From: Escherichia coli | GTDB taxonomy: Bacteria > Pseudomonadota > Gammaproteobacteria > Enterobacterales > Enterobacteriaceae | Length of the DNA stretch: 64,000 bases | NCBI RefSeq assembly: GCF_017348835.2 | Contig: NZ_CP071375.1 | Direction: 5' to 3' (one strand) | Part shown: positions 1 through 6,000 of the stretch, one piece after another | Layout of the letters: each line of letters begins with the position of its first letter | Position numbering within the stretch: the first letter of the stretch is position 1 | Position numbers: made by a program

Positions 1-3000
1 TTGTGAGTACAATATCTGCATGAGCCATCTCAGAAGAAAGTTCAGCCATACTGCATTTGTTGATTTTAAATGCCGTAATACCATATTCAGCACATACTGA
101 CTTCACTTCATCAGCAGCAAGCGTAGATGTAGCGACACCGCTACCACAAGCAACAAGAATATTAATCATAATAAACTCCAGTTTTTACTATTGGATTATT
201 TTGGACACAAAAAGTGCTTTTGCATCATCGACGGGAAGTGTCAGTAAGCTTTGGTAAAATTCTTCATTTTGGAGATGGTTAAATAATGACTTTAACAATC
301 GAAGCTGGTCAGCAGGATCCGTAACAATAAGATTAACGACGAGTCTGACCCACAATATTCCATCTTCATCAGCCCTGTTCACAGGTATTGCGTCTGGCAG
401 ACGGATGATATAAATAGCCGGTTGATTCGCATGTTCACTATCACAGTGTGGTATAGCGATAGAATAACCTTCCAGTTCTATTCCTGTCGGATATTCCGCT
501 TCGCGTTTACGCATAGCATTGAGCCAGCTCTCTTTCACCGTATTCGTTTCACGATGCGTGTTATAAATATGTTCAAGCACGGCATCGTAGTTCTGTAGTC
601 CCGCACCATCGGCAACACTGATCGATATCATATCCTTCCCCCTCACCCCACAATGCTCACATGAGCATTGAACAATCTTCATATGAGCAGTTATAGCACA
701 ACGATCCTGTGGATGAATGACGAGATCTGAGAAATTAAATCCAGATCACAAAAGCACATAATGGCGACAGTATTTATGCTCATATGAGCAAATCATGATT
801 CAAAAAATGATTTCTTCGAAAAAAATGAGGTAAAACTGGCAATATGCAGAGGATGCACTCAATAGAGGACGCTAAGCAAGCATCGCCATGGATGCTCACT
901 TGATAATTAGGAAATGATTACATTTGGCAAAGCTGATTCGAAGGGAGAAGGCGTGTCGTAGTGAGTTCTAACAGGTTATTACTGACGTGTATTTTGCGAC
1001 TTCGGCAATCCCCTCTTTGTCGGCATGATCGTTGGTTATAAGGGCGGTGATCTCCGACCAGTCGCAGATCTTAAACAAACTGCTGCGCTCAAACTTGGTG
1101 TAATCGCCGAGGATATATTTTTTGTCTGAGTGCGAAATTATCGTGCGATCCAAAAACGCATCAGAAGAAGAAGGCGTCGATGGACCAGTCATGTTACTAA
1201 AGCCGTCGGTTCCAATAAAACAGAGATCAACATGTATATCGTTGATCATAGATACCGCCCACCCCCCAAACACTGAGGAACTCTTTCTACGCAGTTCGCC
1301 GCCAAAGAGAAAAACCTGGTTGTCAGATTCAATCAACACACTGGCAACGGGGAGCGAATCTGTGAAGATTTTAAACCCAGATTTCATACATAACAGGTTA
1401 GCCAGCTCAAAAGTGGTACTGCCCGTACCGATAATCATCGAACTATTAGGTGGAATGAAATCAAGCGCTTTGCGAGCAATCGCCTTCTTATAAGAGTTAT
1501 TTTCTTTTTCCCTGACCTGAAAGGGATGCTCTATGGCCCTTTGCTTTAAAGTCGCCCCACCATGGCTTTTGATCAGCAGCCCTTTTTGTTCAAGATGGGT
1601 CAAATCTTTCCTGATGGTTTCATACGTTACTTCATACTTTCGTGCAAGATCACTGACATAGACCGTACCTGCCGACATTAAGTCTTCAAGTATTAACTTT
1701 CGCCTTTCATCAACCAGATACATCCTTCCTCCTGAAAACTATTACCCATCTTAGAAAACGCCAAGCATAGCACAGATGATGCAAACAAAAACAAACACTA
1801 ACAGTGGAAAGTACAAATAAACCCAATAAAGACAATAGTTCAAAAACCATATATCCGATTGATAATAAATGAGTTTTTATTATTCATTACAACGCCACTG
1901 TACAATCCCAATTTGTCCCAATTGGCTTAATTTATTAATTATTTGTTTTTGTTGGTTTTTAATATCATAAAAATCAATTAGTTATAAATTTTGTGATTCA
2001 GATCTCAATTGACAACCAATATTTACCAATAGCATACTTGGCTTTAGTTACTTAACGACAGGCAAAATGAAATGAAAACAAAGATTGCTATCGCAAGCGA
2101 TGATGTAGGTTTTGCACGTAAAGAGGAGATAAAAAAATACCTCATAGAAGAGAAAAACATGGAGATCGTGTACGATCCCGTCACATGTAAGGAACAAGGT
2201 GTCAATAACTTCGCGCGTCTGGCCGACGAAATGGCAGGCATTATTCAACGCGATGAGTGCCGTCTGGGAATTTACATTTGTGGGACTGGCATTGGCTTTA
2301 CTTGTCAGATCAACAAACACTGGGGCATAAGAGCCGTTGCGGTTACTAACCCCTACTCCGCAAAGCGGGCGCGACTCAGCAATAACGCACAAGTTATTGG
2401 ACTGGGTTGCCGGGTCAACGATCTCGAATACAGCAAAATGATTGTCGATGCATGGTTGGATAACCCATTCGACTTCACCACCGCCAGAGAAAATTCTAAA
2501 AAGAACTTGCTAGAAGCTGAACGTAACGATAATGCATTGCTGGTTAAGCCCGCTGATGTACGCTGGAATATGGGTTTCCGACCAGATGATGAAAAATCTG
2601 AGGGTTAATGTATGGAACTGATCACGCAATTTATAAACGATCTGGGAAATTTTATATTTATCCCGGTCATCTTCCTGGTACTGATGAAGATACTTGGCCG
2701 TCCTCTTTCAGAATGTATCTCGTCTGCCATCAAAGTCGGCATTGGTTTCATTGCGTTAACCATGACCATCAAACTGATGCTGGAAAAAATGCAACCGGCA
2801 GTCACCGGATTAGCAGAAGCAACAGGTTCCTCGCTCAGTGCCATCGATGTTGGTGGCGCAGCGACTGCAGTTATGGGATTTGGCTCCAGCATGGGCGCTA
2901 TCATTATTCCCCTCTGTGTTGCGGTAAATATTGCAATGCTGGTCGCCCGCCTGACTGACTGTGTTAACGTTGATGTTTTCAACCTTCATCAAAATGCGTC

Positions 3001-6000
3001 AATGGGGGCAATTGTTGGCGTCTATTCTGGCAGCTTCCTGTATGGCGCATTGACCGCCGCGCTATTCCATGTCTGGGCGCTGATCGCTGCCGATCTTGGT
3101 GCTAAAAATAACGAAAAATTCTTTAACCTGCCAAAAGGTGTTGCGATCTCTCACCCGGTTGCCAATACCTACTTACTTTTCGCTTATCCATTCAACTGGA
3201 TTTATGATCGCATCCCAGGCTTCCGTAATCTGAATGTGACCGCCGAAACTATTCAAAAACGGTTTGGCATTCTCGGCGATCCAACTATGGTTGGTTTTAT
3301 TATTGGTATTTTATTGGGCTTTTGTGGTTATGGCTGGAAATCCCCATACCACACCATAATCGCCAGCCTACAGTTAGGGATGTATCTGGCTGCGGTCATG
3401 CTTCTGTTGCCACGTATGACCTCTATCATGATGGAAGGGCTTGTTCCGCTTTCTAACGTAGCACGCAAAAAACTGGTCAAACGTTTCCCGGATCGTCAAA
3501 TCACTGTTGGCATGGACACTGCCCTGATTGTGGGTCATCCGTCAGTTATCGCCCCTGCATTATTACTGATTCCGGTAATTGTGATCCTCGCCGTAATCTT
3601 GCCTGGCAACCGCGTTATGCCACTGGGTGACCTCTCTCAGTTTGTGTTTTTCATTGCCTGCATGGTACCTGTTTTCAATGGCAACATTATTCGCACCTGG
3701 GTGACCTCGATCATATTGTTTGGTGGTGGTCTGTATATTGCGTCGTGGATGGCACCGGCTACCAACGAAGTCTTCCAGAAATTTGGTACAAACCCGGATG
3801 CCAGCGTGATGTACTCTTCGCTTAACCCGTCAGCGAATCCATTTACTGGTCTGTTTGCCGCCCTGAGCCATGTTGGAATCATTGGCTATGTGATGGCAGG
3901 TATCCTTTTGTTATCTATCGGATACTTAATTAAACAAAAATCACGTCGCCAGATTGAAACGGATTTGGAAAAAGCGCTTTAAATCTTTTACAGAGGAATA
4001 ATCAAATGAAAAAAATATTAGTAGTTTGCGGAAACGGAATTGCCTCATCTTCCATCATGGTCTCTGTACTGCAGGACTTCCTGAAAGAAGAGAAAATTGA
4101 AGCGCAAGTCGATAAATCTTCGTTAATGGCATGCACCAGCGATACCTTCAACAGCTATGACCTGGTAGTTTCATCAACCAAACTCGATAACCCGGCCATT
4201 ACTACTCGTGTCATCGTTGGCGCTGGATTACTGACTGGTCTGGGCGAAGATGAGATTTTCGCTGCAGTTAAAGAAGAGATGTTGAAATAACAGGTGTGCA
4301 ATGAAATTTGAAATTCTGGTGAATGATGTTGATAACAGCATCAGTGACTATCAAACGGCGATCACCTTTGCTGGTACGCAATTATTGGAAAAAGGCTACA
4401 TCACTGCAGAATACATTGACGCCTGCCTGGAACGTGAAAAAAACTATCCGACAGGGCTAATGATGGCAAACGGTCAGGGTATCGCCATTCCCCATGCCGA
4501 TTACACGCTGGTAAATGTAAACAGTATCAGTATTGTTCGTTTCGCCAATGATGTCACTTTCGGGCAAATGGAAGATGCTGATTTAACAGTTGATTGTAGC
4601 ATTATGTTTAACCTGGCATTTGCCACCAGTGATCAACATATGTCGATATTGCGTCGTTTATTCACACTGTTTCAGGATAACGCCTTTGTTGAGACTTGCC
4701 GCAATTTACCTGCAACGCGCGTGGCTAAATATGTAGAGGATACGCTCGCAGCATCCTGAAATTAAAAGGGCAGAATCAGCGGTACTGCCCTTTCTTCACT
4801 GATACGGCTATTAATCCAGAAGTTTAATGGCCGTATCAAAATCAGTAATTAAGACATTCAAAAGTCCGGATTTCAGCGAAGCAAGGATGCCTTCATATTT
4901 TTCTTCTCCTCCAGCGACACCAATCACTTTTTTGGCTTTTTGTAGTTGATCCATCGAAATGCCAAATCCCAGACGTTCAATAGGACTATGAAGAATCTTC
5001 CCTTCCCTGTTGACCAACGAGATACACACATCCGCAGCGATATCTTGTTGAAACAAAGCTTCGCACCAGGTATCCGGAAATATTTTACACAAGCTTGAAG
5101 AACCAGATTTCCAGTCACCTATCCCGGTGATAACCACATCCAACTGTGAGTAATATTGCTGTGTATCTAATACCGCAGGATCACCTGCCAGTCTGGCAGC
5201 AAGCTCTTCGTCATCGACCCACATCGGCACGTACATTGGGTGCGCTTTTCCCTGCGAAATGGCTGCGATCTTATGAATAAGATCTATTGGCCCTTGACTG
5301 AACTCAATCCCCGGATGTACGCCAGATAACTGCACAACGTCTAAAGGAGGCAACTTGCTCAACTTACTGACCGTGCTTGATAATACACGCCCCCAGGCGA
5401 TCCCCACTTTCATACCTTCATGAAGAGATTGCATAAGATATTCAGCGGTGACTTCACCCAATTTGTGATTGAGTTCTTCTTGCGTCGTCCAGGATTCTGC
5501 AACTGAAAGAACAATTGCATCTTCCAGATGAAATTTTTTCCGTAGATTATTAGCGATTTCTTCATCCATCGCTTGCTGCTTAGGGAAGATAAACCTCACG
5601 TAATCCTGTTCGATCGCCTCATCGATCAATCTGGCAACTTTAAAGCGGGAAACGCCAAGCTCCTCTGCAATCTCAATCTTGGTTTTCATATCCGCAAAAT
5701 AACGTCTGACCACGAGCGAGTATATGTAGCGAGGATCGTAACCCTGCCAGCGGCTGTTTTTTTTCTGTTTCGTCATTCTCTTTTCCATTGATCATGTCAT
5801 CAGCAAACATGTATAAATCAGAAGAGTATAACGATTATGCTCATAAGAGATGCGCATATGAGAAGAAAATTATCATTTGTATGATTCGAAACAACCTGTT
5901 CTGGATGACGGAATGCTTACACAGACCGACAAACCAGACGTTTTGAATGTCAAAATCCGTTACGGTTGATATTCACAGGCATTCCCGATCGACGTTGCAA

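What the first reader, a model, noticed from the sequence alone, without database searches (positions are those of the whole stretch)
1..5788. Accessory island with two divergent galactitol-family PTS loci next to ldtA
Left of ldtA, where I recall K-12 having asnV then nac/cbl, the window carries a DeoR regulator-EIIA-EIIB(-EIIC beyond the window) operon on the minus strand, a divergent RpiB-like isomerase-EIIC-EIIB-EIIA operon on the plus strand, and a convergent SorC-type regulator. The substrate is unknown; the RpiB-like isomerase suggests a hexitol, ketose or rare-sugar phosphate rather than galactitol itself, whose pathway uses GatD/GatYZ.
Basis: partly seen in the sequence, partly recalled or inferred. 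Interest (0 to 1): 0.5.

Follow-up and report, generated by a model that had tools for sequence, protein, structure and literature searches.

The report
Accessory two-transporter sugar-uptake island
Next to ldtA this E. coli strain carries a 9.5-kb, low-GC, intact island found in about 5% of complete E. coli genomes. It encodes two different galactitol-family sugar uptake systems plus isomerases, an epimerase and a dehydrogenase for a rare sugar and a related sugar alcohol that are still unidentified. It is a fairly ordinary kind of locus with an unusual enzyme set.

Summary
Window 1-5973 is the right two-thirds of a 9,471-bp island (GC 42.6% against 50.9% in the flank) lying between asnV and ldtA. 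K-12 and 86% of complete E. coli genomes have only about 55 bp at that position.

The whole island has 12 intact genes:
- Module A (minus strand, mostly beyond the window): EIIA-EIIB-EIIC, an Rpe-type epimerase, an SDR dehydrogenase and an HxlB-family isomerase.
- A DeoR-type regulator.
- Module B (plus strand): an RpiB-like isomerase with EIIC-EIIB-EIIA.
- A convergent SorC-type regulator.

Both EIICs belong to the Gat family but are only 29% identical to each other and 31-36% identical to GatC and SgcC.

The island is under strong purifying selection (pN/pS 0.046). It has diverged as much as the neighbouring core genes. It has no integrase and no flanking repeats.

Module B with its DeoR gene and an operator-like ACCAA repeat inside the promoter is conserved from Enterobacterales to Enterococcus, Lactobacillus, Gilliamella and Paenibacillus. 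DeoR therefore most likely controls the plus-strand operon, and SorC probably controls module A through a TGCTCAYRTGAGCA palindrome.

There is no kinase, no aldolase, no GatD and no GatYZ, so this is not classical galactitol catabolism. The substrate remains unknown. This is a new member of a known kind, of moderate interest.

The parts
1..169 (-). Module A EIIB (EIIB1), first 56 codons. The gene continues beyond the window start and is followed there by EIIC1, rpe, an SDR gene, hxlB and asnV.
   Evidence: L001 19876-20169. In one search the best hit is the galactitol EIIB model PRK10310. Cys8 lies in MINILVACGSG.
188..631 (-). Module A EIIA (EIIA1), 147 aa, PTS_EIIA_2 type, with the AIPH histidine.
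   Evidence: In one search PRK09665 scores 136.7 bits, just under its 139-bit cut-off. Sequence.
632..967 (.). Control region of module A, the 336-bp gap between the deoR stop and the EIIA1 start. It holds an extended -10-like TGCTATAAC, a CRP-like TGTGATCTGGATTTAA (complement of 732-753) and three palindromes.
   Evidence: conserved blocks in 5 Enterobacterales genera. The region contains no ACCAA/TTGGT motif.
654..667 (.). Palindrome TGCTCACATGAGCA, candidate operator O3, in the 5' leader of EIIA1.
676..689 (.). Palindrome copy TCTTCATATGAGCA, candidate operator O2, next to the -10-like element.
777..790 (.). Perfect palindrome TGCTCATATGAGCA, candidate operator O1.
   Evidence: 6 matches in L001 against 2.2 expected, 5 of them in the island; 1-3 copies at the same place in L003, L004, L005, L007, L025 and L028, and none in loci without SorC.
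968..1723 (-). DeoR/GlpR-family regulator, 251 aa. It is the candidate repressor of the divergent RpiB-PTS operon.
   Evidence: best hits are AgaR, GlpR and SrlR models, all below their cut-offs; it sits divergently next to the RpiB-like gene in 21 of the 27 related loci. The protein is identical in PE164 and LF82 despite 9 synonymous changes.
1724..2071 (.). Divergent deoR / rpiB-like control region, AT-rich. It has extra A(C/A)CAA-type repeats at 1782-1796 and 1941-1955.
   Evidence: ACCAA/TTGGT occurs at 14.6 per kb in this intergenic region across 18 loci, against 3.3 per kb elsewhere.
1992..2007 (+). CRP-like site TGTGATTCAGATCTCA abutting the -35 element.
   Evidence: one mismatch to TGTGA-N6-TCACA. 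Both half-sites are invariant in 6 genera. The match count over the whole locus is not above chance, so the support comes from position and conservation.
2009..2038 (+). Promoter-like site of module B: TTGACA, 18 nt, CATACT. Tandem ACCAAT repeats at 2015-2020 and 2025-2030 lie in the spacer and are the candidate DeoR operator.
   Evidence: The site is nearly invariant in 6 Enterobacterales genera. The same architecture is seen in Gilliamella, Enterococcus, Paenibacillus and Lactobacillus.
2072..2608 (+). RpiB/LacAB-family sugar-phosphate isomerase, 178 aa. The catalytic CGTG motif is kept, but it reads SDD where E. coli RpiB reads CDH, and it has a roughly 40-aa C-terminal extension.
   Evidence: it passes only the broad family model TIGR00689 and falls below the rpiB equivalog cut-offs. 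One search gives the alignment to 2vvr. It is 40% identical to K-12 RpiB.
2612..3982 (+). Module B EIIC (EIIC2), 456 aa, Gat family.
   Evidence: TIGR00827 scores 350.7 bits against a 542.2-bit cut-off. PF03611. It is 72-96% identical across four phyla.
4006..4290 (+). Module B EIIB (EIIB2), 94 aa, with Cys8.
   Evidence: It is 35% identical to SgcB.
4301..4759 (+). Module B EIIA (EIIA2), 152 aa, with the AIPH histidine.
4811..5776 (-). SorC-family regulator, 321 aa, with an N-terminal HTH and PF04198. It is the candidate repressor of module A.
   Evidence: It occurs only in the Enterobacterales loci that also carry module A and the palindrome.
5838..5864 (.). Two weak copies of the palindrome upstream of sorC, which may allow autoregulation.
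   Evidence: 3 and 2 mismatches. No copies with up to 2 mismatches were found upstream of sorC in the other genera, so this is weak.
5950..5973 (-). Right island junction. The stop codon and last 7 codons of ldtA differ from K-12, and homology to K-12 resumes at about 5974.
   Evidence: LdtA is 99% identical over 303 aa, then ...NINRNGF replaces the K-12 C-terminus.

Best explanation
What it is (shown). This is a functional, chromosomally fixed accessory island for carbohydrate use. It is not a mobile element and not a galactitol locus.

How it works (inferred).
1. Two separate Gat-family PTS transporters take up and phosphorylate two related substrates. Module B most likely takes a rare sugar and module A its sugar alcohol.
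2. The phosphorylated products reach central metabolism by redox and isomerase/epimerase chemistry alone, because no kinase or aldolase is encoded.
3. In module A the polyol phosphate is oxidised by the SDR enzyme. The product is then processed by the Rpe-type epimerase and the HxlB-family (SIS) isomerase.
4. In module B the sugar phosphate is isomerised by the RpiB-like enzyme and then by an HxlB-family isomerase.
5. E. coli has lost the module B copy of that isomerase and presumably uses the module A copy. This implies that the two routes meet at one shared intermediate.

Regulation (inferred). DeoR represses the divergent RpiB-PTS operon through tandem ACCAA repeats inside its promoter. SorC represses module A through TGCTCAYRTGAGCA palindromes. 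CRP-like sites place both modules under catabolite control.

Substrate (least certain). I rank a rare hexose/hexitol pair funnelled to fructose-6-P first, at about 40%. Examples are allose, allulose, allitol or altritol, or a galactose/tagatose/galactitol route through 3-hexulose-6-P. A pentose/pentitol pair comes next at about 30%, and a tetrulose/tetritol pair at about 10%.
For: Anatomy and family membership.
- Searches give the gene order and family assignments.
- The phosphorylation motifs are intact.

Functional constraint.
- PE164 and LF82 differ by 147 synonymous and 23 non-synonymous changes across the 12 genes, giving pN/pS 0.046.
- pS is 0.078 in the island, within the 0.05-0.12 seen for ldtA and cobUST.

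Not a mobile element.
- There is no integrase and no flanking direct repeat.
- The junctions are the same in PE164 and LF82.

The modules are linked.
- Module B is conserved, together with DeoR, in 21 of 27 loci spanning Enterobacterales, Gilliamella, Enterococcus, Lactobacillus, Paenibacillus and Thermophilibacter.
- Module A co-occurs with module B in Enterobacterales and Enterococcus.
- The two modules are fused into one operon in Gilliamella L024.

Convergence on the HxlB-type step.
- A second HxlB-family gene follows EIIA2 in 15 of the related loci (divergent in Paenibacillus L015, before the EIIA in Thermophilibacter L022); the four I scored are above the TIGR03127 cut-off.
- That copy is missing in five loci, four of which also carry module A's copy (E. 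coli, Enterobacter wuhouensis, Providencia, Entomohabitans). In Enterococcus CU9D HxlB-family genes lie elsewhere in the locus.
- A KpsF/GutQ-type SIS isomerase replaces it in L. kullabergensis, Lactobacillus W8174 and Tetragenococcus.
- No other enzyme family recurs across the loci.

Dehydrogenase step. The SDR is replaced by a GatD-like MDR dehydrogenase in Paenibacillus terrae. This fits a generic polyol-phosphate oxidation step.

Regulation. Searches give the promoter, operator-like and CRP-like elements.

Precedent. PTS systems annotated as 'galactitol' carry other polyols. The B. methanolicus atlABC system carries D-arabitol (PMC6685057). Listeria Lmo2665-2667 carries D-arabitol and D-xylitol (PMC13082608, citing Kentache 2016).
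Against: - No experiment or paper on this locus was found. All public names for its proteins are automatic.
- The substrate is pure inference, and each pathway scheme has a gap:
  - The Rpe and HxlB genes look canonical by HMM (235 bits against a 212.6-bit cut-off; 209.8 against 160). This fits ribulose-5-P and 3-hexulose-6-P, yet no 3-hexulose-6-P synthase is present.
  - Taxa with module B alone have no epimerase, which weakens the hexose routes that need one.
  - The RpiB-like protein fails the rpiB equivalog cut-offs, which weakens a plain pentose-phosphate reading.
- The regulator-operator assignment rests on co-distribution and position only. In Enterobacterales the palindrome co-occurs with both SorC and module A, so DeoR binding there is not excluded.
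- CRP-type matches over the locus are not more frequent than chance.
Confidence: 0.72

Rival explanations
1. This is a pentitol/pentose island of the Listeria, E. avium and B. methanolicus type. Module A would import D-arabitol, ribitol or xylitol as a pentitol phosphate. The SDR would oxidise it to xylulose-5-P or ribulose-5-P, and Rpe would interconvert those two. Module B would import an aldopentose such as D-arabinose. Its 5-phosphate would be isomerised by the SIS enzyme, acting as an arabinose-5-P isomerase, to ribulose-5-P, and then by the RpiB-like enzyme to ribose-5-P.
For: - The Rpe gene passes the ribulose-phosphate 3-epimerase equivalog cut-off. It is closer to K-12 Rpe (41%) than to AlsE (34%) or SgcE (31%).
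- A KpsF/GutQ-type (arabinose-5-P isomerase-like) single-SIS gene replaces the HxlB-type gene in three loci.
- Gat-type PTS systems joined to polyol-phosphate dehydrogenases are established for D-arabitol and xylitol (PMC6685057, PMC13082608).
- From memory, the second Listeria 'pentitol' operon (lmo0498-0508) has a similar RpiB, Rpe, SIS-isomerase and dehydrogenase complement. PMC3464598 confirms only its PTS genes.
Against: - An HxlB-family isomerase has no obvious role in pentitol catabolism, yet it is in every module A.
- The RpiB-like enzyme fails the rpiB equivalog cut-offs and has Asp where E. coli RpiB has His10. It also lacks the C-terminal GGRHxxR-type region. This argues against a plain ribose-5-P isomerase.
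- The dehydrogenase is an SDR, not the MDR-type arabitol-phosphate dehydrogenase.
Confidence: 0.3
2. This is a tetritol/tetrulose island, a PTS version of the Brucella erythritol pathway. Module A would import erythritol or threitol as its phosphate, and the SDR would make a 3-tetrulose-4-P. The Rpe-like enzyme would epimerise it, and the HxlB-like enzyme would shift the carbonyl to give D-erythrulose-4-P. The RpiB-like enzyme would then make erythrose-4-P. Module B would import erythrulose as its 1-phosphate and would need only the last two steps.
For: - It is the only scheme I could construct in which every enzyme is used once in a linear order.
- In this scheme module B needs exactly the RpiB-like and HxlB-like pair that is conserved across phyla.
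- The RpiB-like protein hits the D-erythrulose-4-P isomerase model NF051858 about as well as the rpiB model (99.7 against 103.8 bits).
- A remodelled phosphate site would fit a shorter substrate.
- The Brucella EryB, EryC, EryH and EryI logic is recalled from memory (Barbier et al. 2014) and was not checked here.
Against: - The Rpe and HxlB genes look canonical for C5 and C6 substrates by HMM.
- No Gat-family PTS for a C4 polyol is known to me.
- By textbook tables recalled from memory, erythritol fermentation is not a trait of E. coli, K. oxytoca or Citrobacter.
- The NF051858 score is far below its 240-bit cut-off.
Confidence: 0.1
3. The loci are what the automatic names say, namely galactitol transporters feeding the classical tagatose-6-P pathway.
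For: - PGAP names EIIC2 'PTS galactitol transporter subunit IIC'.
- The best NCBIfam hits for the EIIAs and for EIIB1 are the galactitol models.
Against: - Both EIICs score 317 and 351 bits against the 542-bit cut-off and are only 33-34% identical to GatC.
- There is no GatD, GatY, GatZ or tagatose-6-P kinase in the island or in any of the 27 related loci.
- 'Galactitol' PTS annotations have proved wrong before (PMC6685057).
Confidence: 0.04
4. It is a recently acquired mobile genomic island that integrated at tRNA-Asn (asnV), or a decaying remnant of one.
For: - It lies directly 3' of asnV and is low in GC (42.6%).
- Module A has very low GC3, 0.21-0.43.
- Other elements do insert at asnV. 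LF82 has a Gabija-carrying segment there.
- About 9% of genomes have neither the empty site nor this island.
- About 45 genomes carry only part of the island.
Against: - There is no integrase, transposase or tRNA-derived direct repeat at the ldtA end.
- The right junction lies inside the ldtA coding sequence.
- Island divergence between PE164 and LF82 equals that of the flanking core genes, and pN/pS is 0.046.
- DNA identity to the nearest non-E. coli versions is only 74-77%.
Confidence: 0.05

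Closest known systems
E. coli K-12 galactitol operon gatYZABCD-gatR (PTS Gat family, TC 4.A.5)
   Same: It has three separate EIIA, EIIB and EIIC proteins of the same families. It also has a DeoR-type repressor and takes up a polyol as its phosphate.
   Different: - EIIC identity is only 33-34%, and both island EIICs score below the GatC-level HMM cut-off.
- The island has no GatD, GatY or GatZ.
- It instead encodes an SDR, an Rpe-type epimerase, an HxlB-family isomerase and an RpiB-like isomerase.
E. coli K-12 sgc operon (sgcR-sgcE-sgcA-sgcQ-sgcC-sgcB-sgcX), substrate unknown
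   Same: It is a Gat-family PTS combined with an Rpe-family epimerase and a DeoR-type regulator. SgcC is the closest K-12 paralogue of EIIC2, at 36% identity.
   Different: - There are no SgcQ or SgcX counterparts in the island.
- The island epimerase is closer to housekeeping Rpe (41%) than to SgcE (31%).
- The island adds SDR, HxlB-family and RpiB-like enzymes and a second PTS.
PTS-dependent pentitol catabolism of Firmicutes: Listeria Lmo2665-2667 operon and the lmo0498-0508 operon, E. avium arabitol-phosphate dehydrogenase, B. methanolicus atlABCD
   Same: A Gat-type PTS delivers a polyol phosphate that a dehydrogenase oxidises to a pentose-phosphate-pathway intermediate. Rpe and RpiB genes sit in the same operons (PMC6685057, PMC13082608; operon contents of lmo0498-0508 from memory).
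   Different: - The dehydrogenase here is an SDR, not an MDR enzyme.
- The regulators are DeoR plus SorC rather than an MtlR/LicR-type PRD activator. The Enterococcus relatives of module A do have a PRD regulator.
- An HxlB-family isomerase is always present here.
- The substrate is not established.
E. coli glucitol operon srlAEBD-gutM-srlR-gutQ
   Same: It has the same logic of a PTS, an SDR polyol-phosphate dehydrogenase (SrlD), a DeoR-family repressor (SrlR) and a SIS-domain sugar-phosphate isomerase (GutQ) whose role in the operon is unexplained.
   Different: - It uses a different PTS family (Gut).
- The island SDR is only 26% identical to SrlD, and DeoR is 31% identical to SrlR.
- GutQ is a two-domain KpsF-type isomerase, not an HxlB-type one.
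Ribulose monophosphate pathway pair HxlA/HxlB (B. subtilis YckG/YckF)
   Same: The island's hxlB product is a clear member of the 6-phospho-3-hexuloisomerase family. It scores 209.8 bits against a 160-bit cut-off, and its best solved relative is B. subtilis YckF.
   Different: No 3-hexulose-6-P synthase gene is in the island or in any related locus. The isomerase is instead embedded in PTS sugar operons.
D-allose pathway (E. coli alsRBACEK-rpiB)
   Same: An RpiB-family isomerase and an Rpe-family epimerase convert a rare hexose 6-phosphate to fructose-6-P without a dedicated aldolase (PMC12216980).
   Different: - Uptake here is by PTS, not by an ABC transporter plus kinase.
- The island epimerase is below the AlsE equivalog cut-off (178 against 271 bits).
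- Taxa with module B alone lack any epimerase.

Membership tests
PTS Gat (galactitol) family, TC 4.A.5 | EIIC of the EIIC-GAT type (Pfam PF03611 / TIGR00827) | tested here: met
   EIIC1 scores 316.7 bits and EIIC2 350.7 bits on TIGR00827. EIIC2 hits PF03611 with E 9e-64.
PTS Gat (galactitol) family, TC 4.A.5 | Separate soluble EIIB with an N-terminal active-site Cys, and separate EIIA of the Fru/Mtl type with an active-site His | tested here: met
   EIIB1 and EIIB2 both have Cys8, and EIIA1 and EIIA2 both have AIPH.
Galactitol-specific system (orthologue of GatABC with the GatD/GatYZ pathway) | EIIC reaches the curated GatC-level score (542.2 bits) | tested here: not met
   The scores are 316.7 and 350.7 bits, and identity to K-12 GatC is 33-34%.
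Galactitol-specific system (orthologue of GatABC with the GatD/GatYZ pathway) | Galactitol-1-P dehydrogenase GatD and tagatose-bisphosphate aldolase GatYZ are linked | tested here: not met
   They are absent from the island and from the 27 related loci, except for one GatD-like MDR gene in Paenibacillus terrae.
RuMP pathway module (HxlA + HxlB) | 6-phospho-3-hexuloisomerase family protein | tested here: met
   TIGR03127 scores 209.8 bits against a 160-bit cut-off. PDB YckF scores 152.8 bits.
RuMP pathway module (HxlA + HxlB) | Partner 3-hexulose-6-phosphate synthase (HxlA) encoded alongside | tested here: not met
   No HxlA is in the island. The only trace is a 35-bit sub-threshold hit of the Rpe protein to TIGR03128. 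None recurs in the related loci.
tRNA-linked integrative genomic island | Integrase gene and direct repeat of the tRNA 3' end at the distal border | tested here: not met
   No integrase or transposase is annotated between asnV and ldtA. No tRNA-derived repeat lies at the ldtA end.
tRNA-linked integrative genomic island | Adjacent to a tRNA gene, with atypical composition and patchy distribution | tested here: met
   The island starts about 50 bp after asnV. GC is 42.6% against 50.9%. It is in 5% of genomes.
PTS-dependent pentitol-phosphate pathway (Listeria / E. avium / B. methanolicus type) | Gat-type PTS, a polyol-phosphate dehydrogenase and pentose-phosphate-pathway enzymes in one locus | tested here: met
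   The PTS, SDR, Rpe and RpiB-like genes are all present.
PTS-dependent pentitol-phosphate pathway (Listeria / E. avium / B. methanolicus type) | Substrate is D-arabitol or xylitol, and the dehydrogenase is the MDR-type arabitol-phosphate dehydrogenase | tested here: inconclusive
   The dehydrogenase is an SDR, not an MDR enzyme. The substrate cannot be tested with these tools.
Ribose-5-phosphate isomerase B (equivalog) | Reaches the curated rpiB score and keeps the His10 and C-terminal Arg phosphate-binding residues of E. coli RpiB | tested here: not met
   TIGR01120 scores 103.8 against 138.65 bits, and NF004051 scores 121.2 against 135. The alignment shows SDD against CDH and ends at residue 134. 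The role of His10 is taken from memory of Roos et al. 2008.
SorC/DeoR(Bacillus)-type sugar-phosphate-responsive repressor | N-terminal HTH plus the PF04198 sugar-binding domain | tested here: met
   PF04198 hits with E 5e-51 over residues 72-320, with weak HTH hits at 22-60. B. subtilis DeoR and LsrR models also hit.

The most novel reading that the evidence does not exclude
The conserved pairing of an HxlB-family isomerase with an RpiB-like isomerase could define an undescribed PTS-fed catabolic route that uses no kinase and no aldolase. In module A the same isomerase is paired with an Rpe-type epimerase and a polyol-phosphate dehydrogenase. Neither module has a hexulose-phosphate synthase. 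Two concrete versions fit the evidence:
- Net 4-epimerisation of tagatose-6-P to fructose-6-P through 3-hexulose-6-phosphates.
- A PTS version of the erythritol/erythrulose pathway ending in erythrose-4-P.

Either would give 6-phospho-3-hexuloisomerases a role outside formaldehyde assimilation in gut bacteria of several phyla.
Probability: 0.25. Interest if true: 0.6.

Novelty: new member of a known kind. Interest (0 to 1): 0.35.

Why it matters
- The island is a strain-variable nutritional trait. It is carried by about 5% of sequenced E. coli, including the Crohn's-associated strain LF82 and a pig clinical isolate. It has been kept under strong purifying selection, so it presumably opens a specific dietary or host-derived carbon niche.
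- The same RpiB-PTS-isomerase module, with the same promoter-embedded operator, is shared with Enterococcus, Lactobacillus, Gilliamella and other gut bacteria. One substrate assignment would therefore annotate hundreds of genomes.
- Finding the substrate would also explain why 6-phospho-3-hexuloisomerase genes are common in non-methylotrophic gut bacteria.
- In practical terms, the automatic name 'galactitol transporter' is probably wrong for these proteins.

Tried and rejected
- **Literature.** None found a paper on this locus. The BEN2908/LF82 comparison paper describes a different SIS_PHI/PtsG island. The allulose/AlsE paper and the tetrose-isolation preprint were read but are not about this system. 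Kentache 2016 and Povelainen 2003 are not held.
- **Public names.** Names for the eight island proteins looked up are all generic.
- **Solved structures.** Searches of solved structures for the four enzymes gave only family-level relatives and no substrate-specific homologue.
- **Mobile-element signature.** I looked for tRNA-derived direct repeats or long inverted repeats at the island ends and found none. The two-copy repeats are short and chance-like, except for the operator-like ones I followed up.
- **CRP sites.** Counting TGTGA-N6-TCACA matches over the locus gives no excess over shuffles. The site is kept only because of its position and cross-genus conservation.
- **Recent cross-phylum transfer.** I first read the 92% SDR identity between E. 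coli and Enterococcus as recent transfer. I rejected this because the DNA identity is only about 70%.
- **RuMP formaldehyde module.** Rejected, because no synthase gene is present.
- **Not attempted.** I did not run structure prediction or fold searches, because a monomer model would not resolve substrate length in these dimer-interface active sites.

Full report
**Observation.** The window is the reverse complement of E. coli PE164 (NZ_CP114128.1, a pig isolate) at 100% identity. On the minus strand lie the start of an EIIB gene (1-169), an EIIA gene (188-631) and a DeoR/GlpR regulator (968-1723). On the plus strand lie an RpiB/LacAB-family isomerase (2072-2608), an EIIC (2612-3982), an EIIB (4006-4290) and an EIIA (4301-4759). 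A SorC-type regulator (4811-5776) and ldtA (5950-6876) follow on the minus strand. NCBIfam and Pfam confirm the EIIC families and the PF04198 sugar-binding domain of the last regulator; the EIIA/EIIB assignments rest on sub-threshold hits plus the active-site motifs. The phosphorylation motifs of both EIIBs (Cys8) and both EIIAs (AIPH) are intact.

**Full extent.** Fetching the record beyond the window shows that the minus-strand genes continue with EIIC1, a ribulose-phosphate 3-epimerase-type gene, an SDR oxidoreductase and an hxlB-type 6-phospho-3-hexuloisomerase gene. The tRNA-Asn gene asnV follows. In K-12, asnV and ldtA are 55 bp apart. Alignment of the junctions places the island at L001 16503-25973, which is 9,471 bp. 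The left edge follows the asnV terminator. The right edge lies inside ldtA, so the last seven codons of LdtA differ from K-12. There is no integrase, no transposase and no tRNA-derived repeat. GC content is 42.6% against 50.9% in the right flank, and module A has especially low GC3.

**Distribution in E. coli.**
- Island sequence occurs in 277 of 5426 complete genomes. It covers at least 80% of the query in 232, always on the chromosome.
- The K-12-type empty junction occurs in 4671 of 5426 genomes.
- The remaining roughly 9% carry something else at asnV. One example of such an insertion is LF82, where a Gabija (GajA/GajB) segment sits between asnV and hxlB with the PTS island intact beside it.
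- About 45 genomes keep only the ldtA-proximal part of the island.

PE164 and LF82 are collinear from the 3' end of asnV through cobU at 97.4% identity. Across the 12 island genes there are 147 synonymous and 23 non-synonymous differences. This gives pN/pS 0.046 and pS 0.078, within the range of ldtA and cobUST. The island is therefore functional and has diverged together with its core neighbours. It is an old, patchily retained accessory segment rather than a recent insertion.

**Relatives elsewhere.** A scan of one genome per species with EIIC2 found 27 loci. The whole two-module arrangement occurs in Enterobacter wuhouensis, Klebsiella oxytoca, a Citrobacter, Providencia vermicola and Entomohabitans. 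It sits in different chromosomal contexts there, without tRNA-Asn. DNA identity to E. coli is only 74-77% although the proteins are mostly about 80-96% identical (the EIIAs and SorC 63-81%). No other Escherichia species representative was hit.

A smaller core is conserved at 72-88% EIIC identity in Gilliamella, Enterococcus, bee-gut Lactobacillus, Paenibacillus, Mitsuokella, Tetragenococcus and Thermophilibacter. This core is a divergent DeoR gene, then RpiB-like, EIIC2, EIIB2, EIIA2 and a second HxlB-family gene. Clustering all ORFs of all loci shows that no other enzyme family recurs. No kinase, aldolase, transketolase or hexulose-phosphate synthase is found.

Module A (PTS, Rpe, SDR, HxlB) lies a few kb from module B in two Enterococcus genomes. 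In one Gilliamella genome the two modules are fused into a single operon. The four second HxlB-family genes I scored all pass the family cut-off. That copy is missing in five loci, four of which also carry module A's copy: E. coli, E. wuhouensis, Providencia and Entomohabitans. In Enterococcus CU9D HxlB-family genes lie elsewhere in the locus. In L. kullabergensis, Lactobacillus W8174 and Tetragenococcus a single-SIS KpsF/GutQ-type isomerase takes its place. In Paenibacillus terrae the SDR is replaced by a GatD-like MDR dehydrogenase. I infer that the two modules act on related substrates and meet at the step catalysed by the HxlB-type isomerase.

**Regulation (inferred).**
- The promoter-like site upstream of the RpiB-like gene is TTGACA, 18 nt, CATACT at window 2009-2038. 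It is almost invariant in six Enterobacterales genera.
- Its spacer holds two ACCAAT repeats 10 bp apart. The same layout, a -35 element followed by tandem A(C/A)CAA repeats and then a -10 element, is found in Gilliamella, Enterococcus, Paenibacillus and Lactobacillus.
- ACCAA/TTGGT occurs at 14.6 per kb in this intergenic region against 3.3 per kb elsewhere. Because the DeoR gene is the only regulator that travels with this promoter in all phyla, these repeats are its likely operator.
- A CRP-like site (TGTGATTCAGATCTCA, 1992-2007) abuts the -35 element and is conserved.
- The 336-bp gap between deoR and EIIA1 has no ACCAA motif. It carries three copies of the palindrome TGCTCAYRTGAGCA at 654, 676 and 777, an extended -10-like element and a second TGTGA-type site, all conserved across genera.
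- The palindrome occurs only in loci that also encode SorC. Weak copies lie upstream of sorC in E. coli. In Enterococcus, module A is preceded by a PRD-type regulator instead.

None of this has been tested experimentally.

**What it does.** The transporters are Gat-family but are not GatABC orthologues. EIIC1 and EIIC2 are 29% identical to each other, 33-34% to GatC and 31-36% to SgcC, and both fall below the curated cut-off.
- The epimerase passes the Rpe equivalog cut-off and is 41% identical to K-12 Rpe, 34% to AlsE and 31% to SgcE.
- The HxlB protein is a clear 6-phospho-3-hexuloisomerase family member whose best solved relative is B. subtilis YckF.
- The RpiB-like protein keeps the catalytic CGTG motif but passes only the broad family model. 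It reads SDD where E. coli RpiB reads CDH, and it has a different, longer C-terminus.
- The SDR is generic, with 26% identity to SrlD.

With no kinase or aldolase, the phosphorylated products must reach a central sugar phosphate through oxidation, epimerisation and isomerisation alone. Gat-type systems annotated as 'galactitol' are known to carry D-arabitol and xylitol in Firmicutes (PMC6685057; PMC13082608), so the automatic name says little about the real substrate.

**Three chemically coherent schemes remain, and none is free of gaps.**
1. A rare hexose/hexitol pair ending in fructose-6-P. This follows either allose-pathway logic (RpiB plus epimerase) or a route through 3-hexulose-6-phosphates.
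2. A pentose/pentitol pair entering the pentose phosphate pathway. Canonical Rpe and the arabinose-5-P-isomerase-like replacement favour it. The ever-present HxlB-type gene and the atypical RpiB-like enzyme count against it.
3. An erythritol/erythrulose route in which every enzyme is used exactly once. The canonical look of the Rpe and HxlB genes and the known phenotypes count against it.

I rank these at about 40%, 30% and 10%.

**Comparison and verdict.** The island is a further member of the well-known class of PTS sugar or polyol utilisation loci. It is closest in logic to the K-12 sgc and srl/gut operons and to the Listeria, E. avium and B. methanolicus pentitol systems. It is already present, under generic names, in public annotation. 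What is not described, as far as ten literature searches could show, is its substrate. Also undescribed are the cross-phylum RpiB-PTS-HxlB module with its promoter-embedded operator, and the role of a hexuloisomerase without its synthase. I rate it a new member of a known kind, of moderate interest. There is a modest chance that it hides a new route using no kinase and no aldolase.

Noticed in passing
window 5950-5973 (ldtA 3' end): The island junction lies inside ldtA. The last seven residues of LdtA read ...NINRNGF in PE164, whereas the K-12 tail diverges from position 301 (QIS...). Island-positive strains therefore make an L,D-transpeptidase with a different C-terminal tail.
   Followed up: partly
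L035 (E. coli LF82) 4487-8285: In LF82 a Gabija defence system lies between asnV and hxlB, so asnV is a separate insertion hotspot beside the PTS island. GajA scores 963 bits and GajB 885 bits in PADLOC. Two large hypothetical proteins upstream, one of 818 aa, gave no PADLOC hit.
   Followed up: partly
window 188-631 (EIIA1): Between PE164 and LF82, EIIA1 has 5 non-synonymous and 0 synonymous differences, while every neighbouring gene is dominated by synonymous change. It is also the least conserved island protein between genera, at 63-66%. This may reflect relaxed or diversifying selection on this one component.
   Followed up: no
window 4760-4810 (between EIIA2 and sorC): E. coli lacks the second HxlB-family gene that sits here in K. 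oxytoca and Citrobacter (L004 and L005, about 12191-12718). Only 51 bp remain between the two stop codons.
   Followed up: partly
window 9448-10082: Downstream of cobU lie a hypothetical gene and a truncated EutP/PduV-family pseudogene. LF82 has the complete pocR-pduF-pduA... propanediol operon at this position, so PE164 keeps only a pdu remnant.
   Followed up: no
window about 32100-51000: This is an O108-type O-antigen cluster between galF and gnd. It has legionaminic-acid-type genes (LegC-family aminotransferase, neuB, neuC, cytidylyltransferase) and L-FucNAc genes (fnlA, wbjC, wecB). It is flanked by colanic-acid genes and by ugd, wzzB and the his operon.
   Followed up: no
L001 11008-13808 (outside the window, left of asnV): In PE164, yeeO (FMN/FAD exporter) is split by an IS3-family element between asnW and asnU. 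A second identical IS3 copy and a truncated Ig-like adhesin pseudogene lie further left.
   Followed up: no
L012 2135-7989 and L016 12841-19284 (Enterococcus sp. CU9D, Lactobacillus kullabergensis): Next to module B lies a third Gat-type PTS module with a YjbQ-like protein, an Rpe-like epimerase, an HxlB-family isomerase and a PRD regulator. L. kullabergensis adds a KpsF-type SIS isomerase. Gat-PTS operons built around SIS isomerases and Rpe-type epimerases seem to form a larger uncharacterised group.
   Followed up: partly
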